The notes under the pieces were generated by a model. The model had not been told where the DNA came from. It saw nothing but the letters and a program-made list of their open reading frames with translations, and did no database searches. From the IMG/VR virus record IMGVR_UViG_3300029787_000001, positions 1-64,000 of that record: 64,000 bases of DNA; one strand, written 5' to 3'. This DNA is from a virus. How positions within the stretch are numbered: the first letter of the stretch is position 1; every line of letters begins with the position of its first letter. Made by a program: the position numbers and the translations under genes. Positions 34,760 to 61,271 of the stretch are shown piece after piece.

Positions 34760-34951
34760 ATGAAAGTCGGTGACCTTGTTAAACTTTCTCACATTGACTA
34801 CCCTCAGTACGTGAACCTGAAGGGGATTTTGATGGAAGAGGTTTTTCCACAAAAGTGGAAGGTTTACATCAAGGGCAAGATGCATCCTTACCTCGTCCAT
34901 CAAGTAAGCTTCGCCAACCACTGGAGAACGAATGATTCACATCACAGGTAA
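34760..34951 (+). CDS. Small MKVGD-family protein
   Basis: MKVGDLVKL after GGAGAACGAAGA. Confidence 0.7.
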   Translation: MKVGDLVKLSHIDYPQYVNLKGILMEEVFPQKWKVYIKGKMHPYLVHQVSFANHWRTNDSHHR

Positions 34952-35528
34952 GATCCCAAGAAGAGTTGCTGTCGCTGTAAGTGGCGGCATTGACTCTATG
35001 GCAGCCCTCGACTTTCTTCGCAGGGCTCATGATGTTGTTGTGTTGCACTACAACCACGGCACACCTTATGCTCCAAAGGCAGAGGCTCTTGTTCGTGCCT
35101 ATTGCATGAAGCACAAACTAACCATCGTCATCGGAAGATGCGAGGAAGAGATGCCCGATGGCGTTTCCCCTGAAGCGTGGTGGCGAGAAAAACGTTACAA
35201 GTTCTTTGAAGAAGCAACAACTTCGCCCATTGTCACGGCACACCACCTTGACGATCAGGTTGAGAACTGGATCTTCACAAGTCTCAATGGTAACCCATTC
35301 TTGATCCCGCACAAGCGCGATCAGTTCATCCGACCTTTCTTGACCACAGAGAAGCGAGACTTTACGATGTGGTGCATTCGCAAAGAAGTGCCAACGATCA
35401 GCGATCCCAGCAATGGAGACTATCGCTACAGGCGCAACTACATTCGCAATGTAATGATGCCGCACGTCACACACATCAATCCCGGCATCAAGAAAGTAGT
35501 GAAGAAGAAAGTCCTTGACAGCATGTGA
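34932..35528 (+). CDS. tilS: tRNA(Ile)-lysidine synthase-like, PP-loop domain only
   Basis: AVSGGIDS, HHLDDQVE, RPFL, DPSN...RRNYIR; 198 aa. Confidence 0.85.
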   Translation: MIHITGKIPRRVAVAVSGGIDSMAALDFLRRAHDVVVLHYNHGTPYAPKAEALVRAYCMKHKLTIVIGRCEEEMPDGVSPEAWWREKRYKFFEEATTSPIVTAHHLDDQVENWIFTSLNGNPFLIPHKRDQFIRPFLTTEKRDFTMWCIRKEVPTISDPSNGDYRYRRNYIRNVMMPHVTHINPGIKKVVKKKVLDSM

Positions 35529-36758: not shown

Positions 36759-36787
36759 CCGCTGGCACACCGGTTAAAGTGTGCCAC
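36759..36787 (+). repeat. Hairpin repeat copy 1
   Basis: CCGCTGGCACACCGGTTAAAGTGTGCCAC, 8-bp stem. Confidence 0.95.
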
Positions 36788-36990
36788 ACATGCTCACCAC
36801 CAACATAGGGTCCGAGTAGGTACAGGGAACTGGCTTCAGCGCTAATGCTGACTAAGATGATCCAGTAACGGAAACAACGCTCACCCGTGAGCGGGTCATG
36901 CTAATGATGTTGGAAACAATGTATAGGACAAGTTGATCACTTGTCCGAAAAGACGCCTAACAGAGATTAGGAGTGTCCCTGACATTGCAA
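36788..36990 (+). ncRNA. Candidate structured RNA between two hairpin repeats
   Basis: At least six complementary stems, no RBS/ORF. Confidence 0.5.
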
Positions 36991-45922: not shown

Positions 45923-47005
45923 ATGGCGTTCGACTTCGCAACCTTCCTGACCACCGTTCCCTGCATCCTCGATGCCAAGCTCCCCGTGCTGGTCCGTGGT
46001 CGCCACGGCGTCGGCAAGTCCGAGGTGGTGTACAGCATCGCCAAGGAGCGCGGGCTGCCTGTTGTGGAGCGCCGCGCAAGCCAGATGACCGAGGGCGACC
46101 TCCTTGGTCTGCCTGACACTGCCGACCTCTCCGATGGTCGCAAGGCTACGACGTGGAACGCCCCAGACTGGCTGGTGACGGCTTGCACTGAGCCTGTGGT
46201 CCTCTTTCTCGACGAGGTTGACCGCGCTACGATGGAGGTCCGTCAGGGTCTCTTCGAGCTTACTGACAGTCGCAAGATCAACGGGTGGCACCTGCACCCT
46301 GAGACCCTGATCGTCGCTGCCGTCAATGGTGGTGAGCACGGGTCGCAGTACCAAGTCGGTGAGATGGACCCGGCTGAGTTGGATCGCTGGACTGTGTTTG
46401 ACGTGGAGCCCTCCGTCGAGGATTGGCTCTCATGGTCCTCCGGCAAGGTCGATGGTGTCCTGTGGGACTTCATTAACGGCAACCGCCAGCACCTTGAGCA
46501 CACCGACGACTACGAGCCCAACAAGGTTTACCCGTCTCGTCGTTCTTGGGTTAGGTTTGCTCGCACTGTCGAGCCTCTCGCCCTGTTCGCTGAAGAAGCC
46601 GACCGAGACCTGCTTCTCAACCTTGCCACTGGCTTCGTTGGCTTTGAGGCTGCCGTGTCTCTTCGTGATTTCGTGCAGAAGTACGAATATCAGGTCAGCA
46701 TCGCAGACCTCCTCGATGATGGCTCTTTCGACAAGATCGAGAAGTGGGGCATCAACGACCACGCTGCTATGGTTGAGAAGATGGAGCACGCCTCCACTTT
46801 CAGCGAGACCCTGAGTGACTCGCAGGTTACCAACCTTGCAACGTGGTTTGTCTCCATGCCTTCCGAGATCTGCATGAAGCTCTGGTCAGCGATCGGCGAT
46901 TGTGAGGACGAGAACGGCACTAACGCCATTCGTCTCCACAAGGCTACCGCCGCAGACGGCACCCGTGTGAGTGAGCACATGGTCACAATCCTTCGCGGGT
47001 CGTGA
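45923..47005 (+). CDS. MoxR/dynein-related AAA+ ATPase
   Basis: GRHGVGKS Walker A, LFLDEVDRA Walker B, MDPAELDRW. Confidence 0.92.
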   Translation: MAFDFATFLTTVPCILDAKLPVLVRGRHGVGKSEVVYSIAKERGLPVVERRASQMTEGDLLGLPDTADLSDGRKATTWNAPDWLVTACTEPVVLFLDEVDRATMEVRQGLFELTDSRKINGWHLHPETLIVAAVNGGEHGSQYQVGEMDPAELDRWTVFDVEPSVEDWLSWSSGKVDGVLWDFINGNRQHLEHTDDYEPNKVYPSRRSWVRFARTVEPLALFAEEADRDLLLNLATGFVGFEAAVSLRDFVQKYEYQVSIADLLDDGSFDKIEKWGINDHAAMVEKMEHASTFSETLSDSQVTNLATWFVSMPSEICMKLWSAIGDCEDENGTNAIRLHKATAADGTRVSEHMVTILRGS

Positions 47006-47008
47006 TTC

Positions 47009-47209
47009 ATGGAGCCTGCCCTCCGGGTCGGTGATCTGGTCACCCCTGCCAGTGCTACAAGTCCTGCCTTCAAGCAGAAGCACGGGTTCGGGGTGATCAT
47101 CGAGATCGATCGCAAGGATTCCTGGGATGTTATCGTCTACGTTGTAAAGTTCACCAAGTCGCAGCGCATCTATAGGTTTAGTTTCGATGGTGTGAGGCGT
47201 TATGAATAG
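47009..47209 (+). CDS. Small KOW-like protein
   Basis: LRVGDLV. Confidence 0.65.
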   Translation: MEPALRVGDLVTPASATSPAFKQKHGFGVIIEIDRKDSWDVIVYVVKFTKSQRIYRFSFDGVRRYE

Positions 47210-47444
47210 GACCGACAACATTAAAGAAGGTGACCTTGTTGTCCGCAGAGGAGACAAAAAGCCCTACATTGTGTTGGAGGTCAAGAGATATCAAAGAAAA
47301 GTCTACGGAGCAGGACCATCGGGAAATCGCAGAAAGAAGTTCTTACTACTTTCTCCTGACGGGCGGCAAAGTTGGAAGATTGACACAGCGATGAAAGTTG
47401 AGTTTTATCTGCCCGGTAGCCCCTACTTCGATGACATCCGTTGA
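47202..47444 (+). CDS. Small KOW-like protein
   Basis: IKEGDLVV. Confidence 0.65.
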   Translation: MNRTDNIKEGDLVVRRGDKKPYIVLEVKRYQRKVYGAGPSGNRRKKFLLLSPDGRQSWKIDTAMKVEFYLPGSPYFDDIR

Positions 47445-47514
47445 CAAAGATCGTAGCCGTCCAGCCTTGACAAACAGGGCTGGGCGTGTTACATTATAGA
47501 AGTAAGGAGGCACC

Positions 47515-48747
47515 ATGCCTGACAACAAGAAGCCATTTGACCTAAACCTGCACACAGCGCGGCTTCTCATGAGGGAACCATTTTTTGCTGCACTCTCACG
47601 GCGCATCGACAAGATCCGCACTGACAGTGTGCCGACTGCCGGTGTGCGGGTCAACCCTGACACCGCTCAGTTTGAGCTTTTCTACAACCCAGACTTCATG
47701 AGTTCTTTGTCTGACGACCACAAGATGGGCGTGCTCATGCACGAGTTCTATCATCTTGTTTTCGAGCATGTGACGACTCGCAAGCCAGAAGGCGGCATTC
47801 GCCAGATCGATAACATTGCCATGGATCTCTCGATCAACGGCATCTCCGAGATGCGTGGAAAGTTGCCCTGTGAGGCTTCTCCCGGTCCCGTCGTCACTCC
47901 CGGCGGTGAGCCGATGAAGGCGTGTCTGCCCGGCGAGGGCAAGTTTGCTGACCTGCCCGCCAATCAGACCTATGAGTGGTACCTCGCTGCTCTTGAGAAG
48001 ATGCAGGAAGAGGCAGAGAAGAACGGCGAGGGCAATCCTTTCGGTGACGCTGACTCGTTCGATGACCACGACGGCTTCGGCGAGGGCGGTGGCAATCAGG
48101 CAGCCAACGAGATCGCGAAGGAGCGCATGAAGGATGCGATCCGCAAGGCAGCAGAAGAAGCCGACAAGGCGGGCTCCTGGGGCTCCGTGTCCTCCTCGAT
48201 GCGGAAGTCTATCAAGGAGCGTCTCGCCACGAAGGTAGATTGGAAGAAGATGCTTCGCTACTTTGTACGCACAAGTCAGCGCGCCGACAAGCGGTCTACT
48301 CCGCGTCGTCTCAACAAGCGGTTCCCAAAGATTCACCCCGGCAAGCGGGTGCGTCGTCAGGCAAAGATCGCCATCTCCATCGACCAGTCCGGTTCTGTGG
48401 ATGATGGGATGCTCGCTGCGTTCTACTCTGAGTTGGACAACCTCGCACAGTTTGCCGAGTTTACTGTCATCCCGTTTGACACGGAAGTTGCGACCGACAA
48501 GGTTTATGTGTGGAAGAAGGGCGAGCGCCGGAAGGCTGAGCGTGTCCTGCATGGCGGAACCTGCTTCGATGCCCCCACACGGTTCGTCAATGATGGCAAG
48601 TTCGACGGACACATCGTGCTCACCGACATGATGGCTCCCAAGCCAATCGCCAGCAAGTGTCAGAGGATGTGGATGACGACCAGCGAGTACGCCCACAACC
48701 CCTACTTTTCCACAAGAGAGGTCGTGGTGGCGATTGACCGCAAGTGA
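47515..48747 (+). CDS. HExxH metallopeptidase-like plus vWA domain protein (DUF2201-type)
   Basis: HEFYH, NIAMDLSIN, IDQSGSV, GGT.F, LTD. Confidence 0.9.
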   Translation: MPDNKKPFDLNLHTARLLMREPFFAALSRRIDKIRTDSVPTAGVRVNPDTAQFELFYNPDFMSSLSDDHKMGVLMHEFYHLVFEHVTTRKPEGGIRQIDNIAMDLSINGISEMRGKLPCEASPGPVVTPGGEPMKACLPGEGKFADLPANQTYEWYLAALEKMQEEAEKNGEGNPFGDADSFDDHDGFGEGGGNQAANEIAKERMKDAIRKAAEEADKAGSWGSVSSSMRKSIKERLATKVDWKKMLRYFVRTSQRADKRSTPRRLNKRFPKIHPGKRVRRQAKIAISIDQSGSVDDGMLAAFYSELDNLAQFAEFTVIPFDTEVATDKVYVWKKGERRKAERVLHGGTCFDAPTRFVNDGKFDGHIVLTDMMAPKPIASKCQRMWMTTSEYAHNPYFSTREVVVAIDRK

Positions 48748-49593: not shown

Positions 49594-50150
49594 GACATTC
49601 CAAGACAAAGATCGTAGCAGAAACACCTTGACAGATTGGCTCTAACAGATTACATTACAAGAGTAACAGAGACGGAGAAAGAACATGGAAGACCTGACCC
49701 CCCTGGACATCGCGCTTGAGACCACTGACCGAGTGATCGCAGCCATCACGACGCAGGCGACAGCAGCCCTGATTCCAGAGAACTCCGAGACGTTCCTGAT
49801 CGCCTACTGTGCCATGCTCGCTCCGGCAGAAGCATGAGCCAGGATCTCCGATTCCAGTGCGACGTGATTATGCTCTGCGCTGCTGGGATCTTGATCTGTG
49901 TCCTGCTCGCCTCAATCTTCCAAGAGTTCGGATGGACACTGTAGGCTGCCCCAGCCCGGACTATTTACTTTCGAGGTCCACCATGGCAAAGCGCAAGAAC
50001 AAGACCCCCAAGGGTCGCAACGTGATCGCCGTCGCTGCGATCACCCGTTCAGGCTGCAAGAAGCTCTGAGACGCTCAAAAAAAAGATAACAGAAAGACCT
50101 TGACAGATAAGACATAGCAGGTTACTTTGTAGAAGTAACAAGGAGAGCGA

Positions 50151-52173: not shown

Positions 52174-52392
52174 ATGAACCAGATCGAAGCCCTCGACGTG
52201 CTCACGATGCACGATCTCTTCGGAGACGGCAGGCGCGACACCCTCACCGCCGCCATCGCGGTGATCGAGCCCATCGCCACCCGCCGCGCCCACAACGGGA
52301 CCGGCGACAGCATCGACTTCATGCTGGAGATGGTGCAGGGCGCCCGCGAGGATCTGTCTCGCATGGCTCCGTGCCCGTCCGGTCGCTGGTAG
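52174..52392 (+). CDS. Small early protein
   Basis: Own promoter and RBS. Confidence 0.7.
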   Translation: MNQIEALDVLTMHDLFGDGRRDTLTAAIAVIEPIATRRAHNGTGDSIDFMLEMVQGAREDLSRMAPCPSGRW

Positions 52393-52490
52393 CGCACACT
52401 GCTGAGAGGGCAGCGGGTTCGACTCCCGCACGGGTTAGCATCTGGCCGGCTGGTTGCTTCATGGGTTCGAGTCCCATGACCGGTAGCTCT
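52372..52490 (+). ncRNA. Tandem tRNA-like T-arm elements
   Basis: GCGGG-TTCGACT-CCCGC (52413-52429) and ATGGG-TTCGAGT-CCCAT (52461-52477); no full cloverleaf or CCA. Confidence 0.5.
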
Positions 52491-52627
52491 GCACGGACCC
52501 GTAGGGCGGCGACTCCCTCTCACTTTCCTTCCACTTTCCCCTTGACAGACTGACCCTAACGGGTTACATTACAAGAGTGAGAGGGAGACAGACTCCCCTC
52601 CAATCCCCAAGCAAGTGAGTTGACACC

Positions 52628-53038
52628 ATGGCTAACCTCTTCGTCCTGAACCTCGTCGGAACCACCGCCCCCCTCGCCGCAGACAAGAACGCCAACCGCC
52701 TGATCGCTCTCGCGGTCGATATGCTCGCAGGCGACAGTGCCCCGGAGCCGGTCGAGGTCCCCGACACCGACGCCCTCCGCGCTGCCCTGTTCACCCGCGT
52801 CGCCACTGGTGAGGTCTCCCCGGCAGACTGCGCCGCCGAACTGAAGGCAATCGATCAGCAGGTCGCTGACGCTGCGAAGGCTGCGAAGGCTGACCCGCCC
52901 GTGCTCTCGCTCGCTGGCACGCCGGCGTCCGCTGCGATGATTAAGAGGGCGTTTCGCGGAGCGGAGTCCGGCACGAGCGTGGAGGTCGCAAGCCTCGACG
53001 GCGAGCGCGTCGGTTCGATCACAATGTTTCGTTGTTAG
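52628..53038 (+). CDS. Ala-rich early protein
   Basis: Own promoter, 136 aa. Confidence 0.7.
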   Translation: MANLFVLNLVGTTAPLAADKNANRLIALAVDMLAGDSAPEPVEVPDTDALRAALFTRVATGEVSPADCAAELKAIDQQVADAAKAAKADPPVLSLAGTPASAAMIKRAFRGAESGTSVEVASLDGERVGSITMFRC

Positions 53039-53118
53039 GAATGTTCCGGGTCTGAGACTCCAAAAAAAGATAACAGAAAGCCCTTGACAGGTGAGCCCAT
53101 CCGGGTTACATTATAAGG

Positions 53119-53289
53119 GTAACAAGCGACAAGAGGTCCGCGACATGAAAGGTCCGAACTGAACATTCATGCATAGGCTGGGAGGCGTCCCACCTGTGAG
53201 CAGTAGCAAGAGCGACGCACAGAGGTGAACCTGACCCGAACGGGAGGGAACCTGCCTCTTCAAACACGACAGCAATAGTCCAACCCAGC
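53119..53289 (+). ncRNA. Candidate structured RNA from promoter 53084
   Basis: No RBS/ORF; nested stems GGCTGGG/CCCAGCC, GCGTC/GACGC, AGAGG/CCTCT, CATGAA/TTCATG. Confidence 0.55.
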
Positions 53290-53315
53290 CCGCTGGCACA
53301 CCGGTTAAAGTGTGC
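53290..53315 (+). repeat. Hairpin repeat copy 3
   Basis: CCGCTGGCACACCGGTTAAAGTGTGC. Confidence 0.95.
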
Positions 53316-53325
53316 TCCCCTTTCT

Positions 53326-53511
53326 ACGAGAGCCGATCACCTCGCGCCAACGAGAAGCATCGGAGACATTGCACAGGTTTGGCGACCTGTGACGTGTGGG
53401 GCATAAGGTGCCCCGATGGCTTGACCGAACCTCGCAACCCACGCCACCAACGAAGGCGCAGGAGCGACAAGTAGCCGGTCATCTCTGCGGGTTCAACTCC
53501 CGCCTCTCGTT
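53326..53511 (+). ncRNA. About 185-nt RNA closed by tRNA-like acceptor stem and T-arm
   Basis: ACGAGAG/CTCTCGT 7-bp stem stacked on GCGGG-TTCAACT-CCCGC; at least five internal stems. Confidence 0.65.
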
Positions 53512-53604
53512 TCCTTTACAGTCCGAGACAGCAAAAAAAGATAACCCTAACCCCTTGACAGACTAACGGCAGCGCGTTACATTACATGTAAGAAGGGAGA
53601 GACA

Positions 53605-58135: not shown

Positions 58136-58825
58136 TTGAAGCTACTAATTGAAAATTGGAGAAAGTTTGTCAACGAAGGCGTGAATTCTAATTTCACTGT
58201 CTCGATGGACCCTCAAGACTTTTTGACCCTAACTTATCAGGACGATGCCGACATTGAAGGCAGATCCGACTACATTCTTGGAATGCCGGGCGGATTTGAT
58301 AAGACAAAAGCCGGCAAATTGTCTCTTGTTATCAAGAAATGCTGGGATGATGGCGTAGATAAGGTTATTTCCCACGCTGGACGTGCTCGCTCTATGGCTG
58401 CTATGAAGTCTGGGGTGAAGCAGATGCCAGTAATCTTGACTTTTGTTAACTGCGACGAGAAGCCCGTGCGCGGAATGCCAAGTCTGAATTTTATTTCTGA
58501 TAGATTGGAAGGTCAATTTGATAATTCTTCTATCTCAGTAGATAAGATAGGCAAATACGAATCCCAAAGGGCTCTTGATCTTGGCACAAGAACAGAAATG
58601 TCAACAGGAGAACTGTTAAAAACCCTACGAATCACTTTTCTAGAGAAAGCTACAAATGATTATAGAATGGCTGATTTTGTTTCGGACCTAAATAAAGAAT
58701 ATAATTTTATGCTCTCAGGCGAACCCGAACAGGTGAAGGTTATGGTAAAAGATGGACTGCGCTTTCCGGGGTTTGAGTCGGATCCTCCCGAAGATTCCAA
58801 TGTAAAGGTGTTAAATAAAGAATAA
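58136..58825 (+). CDS. MKLLxENW-tagged protein with ParB/Srx-like segment
   Basis: MKLLIENWRKFVNE; SHAGRAR.MAA...G....PV. Confidence 0.75.
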   Translation: MKLLIENWRKFVNEGVNSNFTVSMDPQDFLTLTYQDDADIEGRSDYILGMPGGFDKTKAGKLSLVIKKCWDDGVDKVISHAGRARSMAAMKSGVKQMPVILTFVNCDEKPVRGMPSLNFISDRLEGQFDNSSISVDKIGKYESQRALDLGTRTEMSTGELLKTLRITFLEKATNDYRMADFVSDLNKEYNFMLSGEPEQVKVMVKDGLRFPGFESDPPEDSNVKVLNKE

Positions 58826-58827
58826 CA

Positions 58828-59469
58828 ATGAAACTACTGCTTGAAAATTGGCGCGCTTATCTGGATGAAGAGCAGATAAACGAAAAAATGATGCTGAAAC
58901 CCGGTCCGCAGGGCTGGGATCTCTACGCACAGTTGGTTGGCGATGCCTATTTGGCTGCTCCCAAGTTTGAACAGAGGGCAGTCCCGCATTTTCAAGCTAT
59001 GACACCCTTTCTGGAAAAAATGTTTAAGAGGATCTCAAGCAGAGTAGACATAGAATTCGTTGATTACCACCCCTATAACACAGCAGCAGAGCTAAGAGAT
59101 GCAGTAAACAGCACTGGAAAGATGAAAGTTGCTACAATTGACGCCGAACATGATGTGTTTGACGAAATTACGAACGCAAAATTCAGAGCGGTCCACGATT
59201 ACATGTCCCACATTCAGGCAATCGGCTCACGAGGAACCGAATTTGATTTGAGAGGGGAACTTGCCTCTTATAATGCTCACCTCAAAACAATGCCACAGGA
59301 GTCTATTCCTGCCTTATTTACCGAGATTGTCGGACAGACTTGTGCTTACCACGCTGGTGGCGGCACTTTCGCAGAACAGAAGATCTGTCTATTAGATGGC
59401 TTTGATTACATCAATCTTGGTGTTGTCGAAGGCTATGACATAGTTAATAAGGAATTGGTAAAGAAATGA
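58828..59469 (+). CDS. MKLLxENW-tagged protein
   Basis: MKLLLENWRAYLDE; FRAVHDYMSH. Confidence 0.8.
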   Translation: MKLLLENWRAYLDEEQINEKMMLKPGPQGWDLYAQLVGDAYLAAPKFEQRAVPHFQAMTPFLEKMFKRISSRVDIEFVDYHPYNTAAELRDAVNSTGKMKVATIDAEHDVFDEITNAKFRAVHDYMSHIQAIGSRGTEFDLRGELASYNAHLKTMPQESIPALFTEIVGQTCAYHAGGGTFAEQKICLLDGFDYINLGVVEGYDIVNKELVKK

Positions 59470-60119
59470 AACTACTACTTGAAAATTGGCGAAAGTTCTT
59501 GACTGAAAATGAGGCGGCTTACTTCCCTTGGCTAGAAGAATTAGAAGCGCAAGGTGGAGAAGCCCTTATGGGTCCTGATTTTCAACAAGCAGGCTCAGGA
59601 GCATTCCGTGTTGTCTTCAAGCCAAAAGGAGATGAGGACCATGTCATCAAGCTATCGAAAGATCCTCGCAACAATTGGATGAACAAGATAGAGTCCGAAA
59701 CAGCCAATTCTTACCCCGATTTGTTTCCAAAGACATTTGCTCATGCTGATGATTGGGAATGGATTGTCCAAGAGGCTGTCGAAGTGCTGACCCGAAGAAA
59801 CGAGCAGCAAATGCGTGTTATGTTGCAGAAGACTTTTCCAAACATCTATGTTGTCTTCAAGGGTGCAACTCTAAAAGATCATGAGCTTTCTGGCTTATGG
59901 AGCGACATTGTTGATGCAGCAAGGGGTCCTTACGCAACAAAAGACCAGAAGATTTTTGATTTTGGAATAAAGAACGAAAAAGCCTTCATCCAGCTTGCTT
60001 CAGCTATCTCTAAATTTAAGATAGACAGCGAAGATCTGGGTTATGGCAACATAGGAATAAATGAACAAGGACAATTAAGGATCTTAGATGCCTCTGTGCT
60101 TCTCAGACCAAAGGAATAA
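59466..60119 (+). CDS. MKLLxENW-tagged kinase-like (PK/APH fold) protein
   Basis: GSGAFRVVF, VIKL, ED.GYGNIG, ILDAS. Confidence 0.7.
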   Translation: MKLLLENWRKFLTENEAAYFPWLEELEAQGGEALMGPDFQQAGSGAFRVVFKPKGDEDHVIKLSKDPRNNWMNKIESETANSYPDLFPKTFAHADDWEWIVQEAVEVLTRRNEQQMRVMLQKTFPNIYVVFKGATLKDHELSGLWSDIVDAARGPYATKDQKIFDFGIKNEKAFIQLASAISKFKIDSEDLGYGNIGINEQGQLRILDASVLLRPKE

Positions 60120-60121
60120 TT

Positions 60122-60601
60122 ATGAAACTACTACTTGAAAATTGGCGTCAATTTATGAATGAGGATGTGCGAGTCACATTTAAAAAAGCAATTGATTTGG
60201 TCTGCCCCCCAGCAACACAGGACTTGGAACTTAACACGAAGAACCGTGATTCCGCAATTCATGCTGAACACATTCAGTACGGTCCTCTGAATGTCGGAAT
60301 GCCCGGTGACTACTGGGAAGAAATCGCCGACTACTGGAACACAACTGAAGAGGCAGCCGAAGCTTCTAACTGTGGGGTTTGCACTGCTTTTGACATTTCT
60401 CCTAGAATGTTGGAATGCATGCCCGGCGAAACATCCGATGAAGACGGTGTTCTCGGCTATTGCTGGATGCATAACTTCAAGTGTCACTCTGCGCGTGCTT
60501 GTAGAACTTGGGCAAAGGGTGGACCCATAGAGGAAGATTCAGTTTCTGCTGATTGGCAGGAGCGCTCAAACATAGGTAAAGAGAATGAAACTACTGATTG
60601 A
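60122..60601 (+). CDS. MKLLxENW-tagged Cys-rich protein
   Basis: CGVC...F, GYCWMHNFKCHSARACRTW. Confidence 0.8.
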   Translation: MKLLLENWRQFMNEDVRVTFKKAIDLVCPPATQDLELNTKNRDSAIHAEHIQYGPLNVGMPGDYWEEIADYWNTTEEAAEASNCGVCTAFDISPRMLECMPGETSDEDGVLGYCWMHNFKCHSARACRTWAKGGPIEEDSVSADWQERSNIGKENETTD

Positions 60602-61271
60602 AAACTGGCGTAAGTTCTTGGCTGAAGAAGAAGTTCTAGTTGAGAAATGCTGGGACGGCTACAGACAAGCTGGGCTTAAAAAGAAAGGTGACCGAATGGT
60701 CCCCAACTGTGTCCCAATTGGTGGAAAGAAAGACGAAGCAATGGAGATAAATGAAGAGCAAGGTCAATACATCGGCACTATTGACGATGTGGGCTCTGAC
60801 CTTTATCGCATCTCCAAGCGCTATGGAGACAAGGGCGACAATTATGAACGATTTCAGAAGGGAGCCAAGGTCATAAGGTCCCGTAACACGTCCGCAGATG
60901 ACCAGCAGCCCTATCTAAATTCTGATGGAGACCCAGAGCATAGGATTTATTTTTTCGGCTCTGGAGACGACGCTAAGGCTGCTATGATGTCCGACACACA
61001 AGAGTTGGAAGCAATCGTCGGCGACTTTTCTGACGCAGACAAGGAAAAAGGCATCAATGAGAATTTGTTGTTAGTCCGCATTTCGATGAACCAAGTTCCA
61101 AAAGAGGTTGAATTCTTCACCGATTACGAATTGGAAGGAACTCCCTACGATGCTATTTATGGTGCGTACCCAGATGGTCGGGCTTGGACTCTCGCCCCCA
61201 AATCAAATGACATTCAGTTAGCGACCGATCTACTTAACTATGAAGAGGACGATTACTATGAAGATTACTAA
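60585..61271 (+). CDS. MKLLxENW-tagged protein with CWDGY..VPNCVP module
   Basis: MKLLIENWRKFLAE; CWDGYRQAGLKKKGDRMVPNCVP. Confidence 0.8.
   Translation: MKLLIENWRKFLAEEEVLVEKCWDGYRQAGLKKKGDRMVPNCVPIGGKKDEAMEINEEQGQYIGTIDDVGSDLYRISKRYGDKGDNYERFQKGAKVIRSRNTSADDQQPYLNSDGDPEHRIYFFGSGDDAKAAMMSDTQELEAIVGDFSDADKEKGINENLLLVRISMNQVPKEVEFFTDYELEGTPYDAIYGAYPDGRAWTLAPKSNDIQLATDLLNYEEDDYYEDY

What the first reader, a model, noticed from the sequence alone, without database searches (positions are those of the whole stretch)
53084..53511. About 400-nt non-coding early transcript ending in a large tRNA-like RNA
A full early promoter drives no ORF. Domain A (53119-53290) is a multi-stem fold. After the repeat hairpin, domain B has a 7-bp ACGAGAG/CTCTCGT stem stacked on a perfect T-arm (GCGGG-TTCAACT-CCCGC). 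It encloses about 150 nt of stems: CCGAT/ATCGG, CTCG/CGAG, CACAGGT/ACCTGTG, GGGGCA/TGCCCC, TGACCG/CGGTCA and CGCC/GGCG. The geometry is tmRNA/Y-RNA-like, but there is no G3:U70, CCA, tag ORF or anticodon arm. This is the strongest candidate here for an undescribed phage RNA class (decoy for tRNA-sensing defence, ribosome modulator or scaffold).
Basis: partly seen in the sequence, partly recalled or inferred. Interest (0 to 1): 0.8.

Follow-up and report, generated by a model that had tools for sequence, protein, structure and literature searches.

The report
Modular phage tRNA-mimic RNA cassette
A marine virus of bacteria places, among its host-takeover genes, a mix-and-match string of small folded RNAs that ends in a conserved 185-base tRNA look-alike unable to read codons; it matches no catalogued RNA family and its job is untested.

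Summary
Real and conserved, but a cassette of three separable modules rather than one 400-nt RNA.

B (53326-53510) has tRNA topology: a 6-bp conserved acceptor, a two-arm kissing-loop insert, a D-like hairpin with GG, a variable arm in the anticodon position, a 4-nt variable loop and a T arm. In 32 distinct homologs 98.3% of cells pair, with repeated compensatory changes. Distant homologs occur in two other phages (one shares 42% DnaE identity).

A (53133-53258) is not ORF-free: it opens with a Shine-Dalgarno site, AUG and a 5-codon ORF, followed by covarying helices. A small hairpin, probably a pseudoknot (53290-53316), precedes B as it precedes real tRNAs. Relatives shuffle, duplicate or drop the modules.

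There is no Rfam match, and it is not tmRNA or YrlA. The closest design is T4 RNA C (function unknown). Relatives appear in two metatranscriptome assemblies (weak evidence).

Best reading (0.4): an RNase P-excised, non-decoding tRNA mimic acting early as a decoy for host tRNA-binding factors. This scan has noted other kissing-loop tRNA mimics and similar pseudoknots in other phages.

The parts
53084..53112 (+). Early sigma70-type promoter (-35 TTGACA, 17 nt, -10 TACATT); start site inferred near 53119
   Evidence: It sits directly before the cassette only in some relatives; in others the cassette follows the upstream ORF with no promoter between
53133..53150 (+). Module head: Shine-Dalgarno-like GAGGT, 7-nt spacer, ATG AAA. 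Repeated at the head of every A-type module in relatives
   Evidence: An ATG-blind matrix scan found 61 ATG, 1 GTG and 1 TTG at this position; 1-3 tandem copies per locus
53145..53162 (+). 5-codon mini-ORF MKGPN*
   Evidence: Window-type modules stop at codon 6 (12 sequences, TGA or TAA) or codon 11 (14 sequences), always at or before the foot of the first helix
53170..53218 (+). Domain A, first helical domain (53170-76 with 53195-202, capped by a hairpin), with a probable loop pseudoknot 53185-89/53214-18
   Evidence: The pseudoknot partners change together (GCG/CGC in 11 sequences, GCA/UGC in 14), but this is essentially one clade split, so support is weak
53222..53258 (+). Domain A, second hairpin with a conserved internal loop (GGUGAA and GAACCU)
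   Evidence: 3 pairs with changes on both sides
53290..53316 (+). Repeat hairpin HP: covarying 7-bp stem plus an invariant CCG/CGG, probably an H-type pseudoknot; placed just 5' of B and of true tRNAs
   Evidence: It lies 9-12 nt before B in 23/33 sequences and 7-8 nt before four tRNAs, 17 nt before a fifth. The 3-bp pseudoknot stem never varies, so it is inferred
53326..53510 (+). Domain B, 185-nt tRNA-like RNA: acceptor helix 53326-32/53504-10
53333..53391 (+). B: two-arm insert P2 (53333-63) and P3 (53372-91) whose loops pair (53345-50 with 53379-84)
   Evidence: 6/6 kissing pairs intact in 32/32; one pair has three compensated states (AU 16, CG 13, UA 3) and 3 coincident changes on the tree; a held-out distant homolog adds three more compensations
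53398..53414 (+). B: P4, D-arm-like hairpin with GG in or at the edge of its small loop
   Evidence: 33/33 sequences plus L214. Docking on the T loop is inferred from tRNA
53416..53482 (+). B: P5, long variable arm in the anticodon position (31-65 nt inside), with GAA/AGUA loop-E-like strands and no anticodon loop
   Evidence: 4-bp closing helix 100% paired; both strands present in 28/33
53483..53503 (+). B: 4-nt variable loop and canonical T arm
   Evidence: variable loop 4 nt in 33/33, T loop UUCRANY in 33/33
52628..53038 (+). Upstream 136-aa ORF of unknown function; used as the synteny anchor, not an obligate partner
   Evidence: 160 homologs, no Pfam family; present without the cassette in L025, L035, L037

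Best explanation
The promoter makes an early precursor carrying three independent RNA modules. The host tRNA-processing machinery cuts B out: RNase P at 53326, then 3' trimming, with or without CCA addition (inferred). B folds as a tRNA body, with the acceptor stacked on the T arm and the T loop docked on the GG of P4. A kissing-loop domain is bolted in between the acceptor and D-like arms, and a swappable arm sits in place of the anticodon. It cannot decode and is probably not aminoacylated. Its most likely job is a stable tRNA decoy that occupies or blocks a host factor recognising the tRNA elbow or acceptor end (a tRNA-targeting defence effector or sensor) during host takeover. The Shine-Dalgarno/AUG head loads a ribosome on a throw-away mini-ORF that stops before A's fold, most simply to shield the RNA's 5' end. 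HP caps the end left by the cut in front of B. Shown here: structure, conservation, modularity and the absence of decoding features. Inferred: processing, tertiary docking, translation of the mini-ORF and every statement of function.
For: Covariation score 0.405 against 0.171 shuffled, and 34-48% paired when partners are slid. About 25 compensatory events on the tree with no broken pair in those helices. Class-I tRNA geometry is kept in 33/33. HP sits at a similar distance before B as before true tRNAs. B is kept near the MoxR gene in a phage whose DnaE is only 42% identical and in a third phage. It lies in the early-promoter region. Gain, loss and reshuffling across 62 loci, in over 40 module orders, resemble accessory anti-host genes. 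In two metatranscriptomes from different studies, only 53133-53510 of a 3-kb stretch is covered (weak). Initiating ribosomes at a strong Shine-Dalgarno site are known to block RNase J1 (PMC5737220).
Against: No target, host or binding partner was identified, and no isolated relative exists. The tRNA body could be only a chassis for the kissing domain or P5. Two variants (L053, L056) lack the kissing domain and have an altered T loop. Many known tRNA-targeting defences cut anticodon loops or act on CCA ends (own knowledge), and B has neither encoded. The RNA data are contigs of relatives at depth 2-7, with no strand or end information, from runs chosen because they hold this stretch. Whether the host has a 5'-3' exonuclease is unknown.
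Confidence: 0.4

Rival explanations
1. Natural tRNA scaffold: the tRNA body only gives precise processing and stability, and the working parts are the kissing domain and the loop-E arm, which bind or tether a host or phage protein, as Y RNA tethers Ro60 to PNPase.
For: The invariant bases cluster in the insert (CGCC.A loop, GGAGA joint) as much as in the tRNA body. P5 carries many unrelated payloads behind a kept loop-E-like motif.
Against: No co-occurring partner gene was seen; there is no Ro60/TROVE in three genomes. The kissing domain is lost in L053/L056, and the P5 payload can shrink to about 30 nt.
Confidence: 0.25
2. Ribosome modulator: the tandem Shine-Dalgarno/AUG heads followed by pseudoknots capture or pause host ribosomes, and B binds the ribosome through its elbow, shifting translation to the phage.
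For: Up to three heads per array. Only valid start codons are tolerated. Lys at codon 2 in 34/36 and Pro at codon 4 in 27/36, with synonymous changes. A pseudoknot begins about 22 nt after the AUG in the sister module.
Against: The phage needs the same ribosomes. The window-type module terminates before its structure. The AUG lies in a weak hairpin, so structure could explain part of the conservation. There are only two non-ATG variants, so the statistic is thin.
Confidence: 0.15
3. Punctuation only: B is a mascRNA-like processing signal that makes the 3' end of the upstream modules or mRNA and has no role in trans.
For: B is usually last in the array and follows HP as tRNAs do.
Against: A plain tRNA would do the job. 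The insert is conserved far beyond need. B stands alone after a gene in L112, and many arrays keep A without B.
Confidence: 0.1
4. An aberrant tmRNA or Y RNA (YrlA).
For: T arm plus acceptor with a long irregular arm in the anticodon position; a mini-ORF and pseudoknots nearby.
Against: G3-C70 in 32/32, no CCA, and the ORF lies outside the tRNA-like domain with its own start. Rfam's tmRNA model matches the 17-nt T arm only. No SmpB or Ro60 gene. The arm order is not permuted as in YrlA, and the GNCGAA motif is in 2/33 (PMC4201824).
Confidence: 0.03
5. Decayed tRNA pseudogenes or neutral debris.
For: The cassette is dispensable in some relatives.
Against: Compensatory changes in every helix, including the tertiary kissing pair, across phages with 42% DnaE identity.
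Confidence: 0.02

Closest known systems
Phage T4 RNA C (rnaC, species 1 RNA; NC_000866 70908-71046)
   Same: Phage-encoded, anticodon-less, with a T arm and short 3' helix. Two long arms follow the 5' end, and their loops are complementary over 6 bp (checked here). No CCA is encoded. Function unknown (PMC9697503).
   Different: No detectable homology: model R1 hits only its T arm, 9.8 bits. B has two more arms (GG-loop P4, loop-E P5). RNA C lies in the tRNA cluster and is classed as late (PMC9697503); B is behind an early promoter in a modular array.
tmRNA (Rfam RF00023)
   Same: Acceptor + T arm with a long non-anticodon arm; pseudoknots and a short reading frame in the same transcript.
   Different: No G3:U70, no CCA and no internal resume frame; the mini-ORF has its own SD and AUG and lies upstream; stemmed arms replace the stemless D loop; no SmpB gene.
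YrlA / bacterial Y RNA (RF02553; PMC4201824)
   Same: Non-coding tRNA mimic found in phages; one member is cut by RNase P and receives CCA.
   Different: Not permuted (the RNA ends form the acceptor), no Ro60-binding stem, no Ro60 gene in the three genomes tested.
Canonical class I tRNA (RF00005)
   Same: Order of arms, 4-nt variable loop, T loop, GG in the D-position loop, placement after the HP leader.
   Different: A 59-nt kissing insert, no anticodon loop, unconserved first pair and discriminator, and no encoded CCA although this phage's eight window tRNAs encode it.
Coremin / xrRNA-C (for HP only; PMC10321173)
   Same: Compact hairpin or H-type knot with a UUAAA linker.
   Different: No YGAD tetraloop, no CUAC spacer, and a 7-bp Watson-Crick second stem. 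Nuclease resistance was not tested.

Membership tests
tmRNA | G3:U70 alanine identity | tested here: not met
   G3-C70 in 32/32
tmRNA | Internal tag frame without start codon, between pseudoknots | tested here: not met
   P5 interior is 31-65 nt and unalignable; no ARAGORN tmRNA call at default score
tmRNA | Match to RF00023 | tested here: not met
   T arm only, 17 bits against a cut-off of 47
YrlA / Y RNA | Encoded next to Ro60 (TROVE) | tested here: not met
   0 of 3 genomes (one is 64% complete); a host Ro60 cannot be excluded
YrlA / Y RNA | Permuted T-acceptor-D order and GNCGAA motif | tested here: not met
   the RNA ends form the acceptor; motif in 2/33
tRNA | Acceptor + T arm + 4-5 nt variable loop | tested here: met
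tRNA | Anticodon stem with 7-nt loop | tested here: not met
   no call by ARAGORN at default score or by Rfam
tRNA | CCA end and aminoacylation | tested here: inconclusive
   CCA encoded in 0/32, CC at 74-75 in 20/32, discriminator A/U/C. Host CCA addition cannot be tested; the phage encodes no such enzyme
T4 RNA C type | Two kissing arms inside an acceptor/T-arm frame, no anticodon | tested here: met
T4 RNA C type | Sequence or model homology to rnaC | tested here: not met
T4 RNA C type | Stable, discrete RNA in infected cells | not testable with these tools
   only assembled contigs of relatives
GOLLD, ROOL, IMES and other Rfam 15 motifs | Covariance-model match | tested here: not met
Coremin xrRNA-C (HP) | YGAD loop, CUAC spacer, second hairpin | tested here: not met
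Coremin xrRNA-C (HP) | Blocks a 5'-3' exonuclease | not testable with these tools
   needs an in vitro assay

The most novel reading that the evidence does not exclude
These phages run a recombining library of RNA effectors. Each unit is headed by a shared ribosome-loading repeat that also serves as the recombination joint, is processed by host tRNA enzymes, and the string ends in a tRNA decoy. This would be an RNA-only counterpart of the variable early anti-defence protein arrays, with B directly neutralising a tRNA-targeting immune system.
Probability: 0.2. Interest if true: 0.9.

Novelty: new variant of a known kind. Interest (0 to 1): 0.7.

Why it matters
T4's stable RNAs C and D still have no known function (PMC9697503, 2022). 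This family shows the same design, an anticodon-less tRNA frame with kissing arms, in an unrelated marine lineage. It comes with 30+ natural variants, natural deletions of single domains (no kissing domain, minimal P5) and an early-gene context, which makes structure-function tests straightforward. The Shine-Dalgarno/AUG-headed, freely shuffled RNA modules have no counterpart that I could find in Rfam or in the papers searched. If they act against host defences or ribosomes, they would add RNA to the host-takeover toolkit usually assigned to small proteins.

Tried and rejected
- Rfam at gathering and at E-value thresholds: nothing but tRNAs and a bare T-arm hit.
- blastn of the window's cassette and of the other subfamily against 50,697 phage records: no match.
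- Exact-motif scans of IMG/VR for the window's 3' end and for domain A: none.
- Prokaryote genomes: 94 stretches matched the pattern; the 80 returned have no R1 match, so they are chance hits.
- ARAGORN at a relaxed score gave 202 junk calls and was ignored.
- Single-sequence folding of A is no better than shuffles.
- Resemblances of A to c-di-GMP and SAM riboswitches, SRP RNA and RNase P RNA were recalled from memory and dropped for lack of any Rfam match.
- Conserved peptide function was rejected: sister-module ORFs end anywhere from 9 to 60 codons.
- Host identification failed: the best DnaE match among isolates is about 31%.
- Runs X1 and X2 cover ORFs and cassette alike at depth 2-5 and may include DNA. 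Lack of cover on the flanking genes in X4 and X5 proves nothing about their expression. The high depth of the 31-nt HP contig (165 and 65) reflects a word shared by many phages.
- Pairs 11-207, 61-74, 103-181 and 189-201 change only once on the tree and are confounded with clade splits.
- Literature searches found no description of this RNA. The 10,006 candidate viral RNA models of PMC10690425 could not be searched, so overlap with one of them is not excluded.

Full report
Setting. The window is the first third of a 191-kb virus record with no close isolate; homologous loci come from marine metagenomes. Between about 39 and 55 kb lie roughly 25 near-identical sigma70-type promoters, each in front of one to three small genes, the layout of a host-takeover region. 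The promoter at 53084-53112 is one of them. No long ORF follows it before the next promoter at 53555.

Finding homologs. Searches of annotated phages and of Rfam found nothing. The upstream 136-aa ORF has 160 homologs, and an alignment of them fetched 80 metagenome loci chosen without regard to the RNA. These gave 32 distinct full-length copies of domain B, with mean pairwise identity 64% and minimum 41%. A pattern scan and a covariance model added two copies from other large phages. L112 lies in a 281-kb phage whose DnaE is 42% and MoxR 38% identical to ours, 2.7 kb from its MoxR gene. L214 lies in a third phage. No cellular copy was found.

Domain B is a real structured RNA. On 34 named pairs, 98.3% of cells pair, 14 pairs show changes on both sides, and the covariation score is 0.405 against 0.171 in shuffles; slid controls pair at 34-48%. 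The homologs split into two clades, so I counted changes on a tree. Pairs 17-44, 18-43, 20-42 and 32-66 change 5, 3, 3 and 3 times, always together; some others change once and prove little. It occurs as A-U, C-G and U-A. L214, which was not used to build the model, has different but still complementary loops, CUGCCA and UGGCAG.

Read in tRNA order, B is: acceptor 5' strand; the P2/P3 kissing insert; P4, a short hairpin with GG in or at the edge of its loop in 33/33; P5, a 4-bp helix enclosing 31-65 variable bases with GAA and AGUA strands in 28/33; a 4-nt variable loop in 33/33; the T arm; and the acceptor 3' strand. So the D-like and anticodon-position arms are retained, and the kissing domain is an addition. 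That P4's GG docks on the T loop is inferred from tRNA. The first pair forms in only 15/32, position 3:70 is G-C in all, the discriminator varies and CCA is never encoded, whereas the window's eight real tRNAs encode it. Two variants lack the kissing insert altogether.

Domain A is not ORF-free. It begins with GAGGT, seven bases and ATG AAA, then reads MKGPN and stops. The same head starts every upstream module in relatives, one to three in tandem. A scan blind to the start codon found ATG 61 times, GTG once and TTG once. A similar GAGGTCCAC precedes a called small gene in L025 and its counterpart at 49983 here. In the window's module type the frame always closes at codon 6 or 11, at or before the first helix, with TGA, TAA or TAG. 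In a sister type the frame length runs from 9 to 60 codons, so the peptide itself is not conserved. The AUG also lies in a weak hairpin, so structure may explain part of this pattern. Behind the stop, A has two covarying helical domains (99.5% paired, 5 pairs changed on both sides) and a possible loop pseudoknot with weaker support. Alone it folds no better than shuffles.

The hairpin HP recurs exactly at 36759 and 36991 and in 19 IMG/VR loci. Its 7-bp stem covaries, and an invariant CCG/CGG could close an H-type pseudoknot. It sits 7-8 nt before four real tRNAs and 9-12 nt before B, which suggests that B is handled like a tRNA. It does not meet the published coremin definition.

Modularity. 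Among 62 distinct anchored loci there are over 40 module orders (some loci are cut short): A without B, B without A, doubled heads, extra modules, tandem T-arm RNAs in place of B, or no cassette at all. The promoter stands directly before the cassette only in some. The '400-nt RNA' is therefore one arrangement of interchangeable parts.

Expression. In two metatranscriptomes from different studies, the only contigs laid on a 3-kb stretch cover 53133-53510. Contigs in two runs stop at 53509-53510, the predicted end of the acceptor. These are relatives at depth 2-7, unstranded, from runs picked for holding the stretch, so this is a hint only.

Mechanism. Most likely the host's RNase P and 3' trimming release B as a stable, non-decoding, probably uncharged tRNA mimic that acts early as a decoy for a host factor recognising the tRNA body (0.4). 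Rivals are a scaffold presenting the kissing and loop-E domains (0.25), ribosome capture (0.15) and pure punctuation (0.1). The module head most simply loads a ribosome that shields the 5' end, a known effect in Bacillus (PMC5737220). None of these functions was tested.

Comparison. It fails the tests for tmRNA and YrlA (PMC4201824). Following a lead from earlier scan notes, I fetched T4 rnaC. It also has two long arms with 6-bp complementary loops and a T arm, and its function is unknown (PMC9697503). However, the model sees only its T arm, it lacks P4 and P5, and it is late. B shares the design of RNA C but is not a member by homology. I found the kissing pair before consulting those notes. 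The scan has reported other kissing-loop tRNA mimics and UAAA pseudoknots in other phages; these are unchecked leads, and I did not test whether they are homologous to B or HP.

Verdict. Observation largely right, with corrections; a new, well-supported RNA family of a known but unexplained kind, inside an unusual modular array. Interest 0.7.

Noticed in passing
window 36785-36990: A second non-coding element of about 200 nt between two HP copies in the tRNA cluster; folds at z -2.4 and is partly conserved in L007, L016 and L003.
   Followed up: partly
window 52388-52492: Two tandem T-arm hairpins after a stop codon, conserved in about 9 loci. A similar nested double T-arm RNA lies just upstream of the B homolog in L214.
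   Followed up: partly
L064:663-776, L073:760-875: A different tRNA-like RNA with its own early promoter (7-bp acceptor, T arm, no anticodon loop; z -2.35).
   Followed up: partly
L025:263-444: Another T-arm-ending non-coding stretch in the early region of a relative that lacks the cassette.
   Followed up: no
L057, L060, L062 downstream of HP: Two or three tandem T-arm RNAs stand where B would be.
   Followed up: no
L043, L066, L067, L072, L095, L106 between A and HP: A further recurrent hairpin module starting AGAGAUAGGAA, sometimes doubled, absent from the window.
   Followed up: no
L020:6500-6620 and 28 others (alignment A5): Sister module with the same SD/AUG head followed by an H-type pseudoknot about 22 nt after the AUG; both stems covary.
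   Followed up: partly
window 34932-35528: PP-loop (TilS-like) gene just before the tRNA cluster, whose first tRNA has a CAT anticodon and may be a lysidine-modified tRNA-Ile (inference).
   Followed up: no
window 45923-48747: MoxR-type AAA ATPase with a DUF2201 VWA/metallopeptidase partner inside the early region; the ATPase gene also lies near B in the 281-kb phage.
   Followed up: partly
window 58136-61271: Five consecutive ORFs share an N-terminal MKLL.ENW tag; already followed up elsewhere in the scan.
   Followed up: no
genome ends (G000): The last ~60 bases repeat the first ~60 with one mismatch, suggesting a complete circular assembly although the record is classed as linear.
   Followed up: no
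runs X4 and X5, window 53258-53326: RNA contigs of a relative join A to B with 8 other bases, that is, a variant without HP.
   Followed up: no
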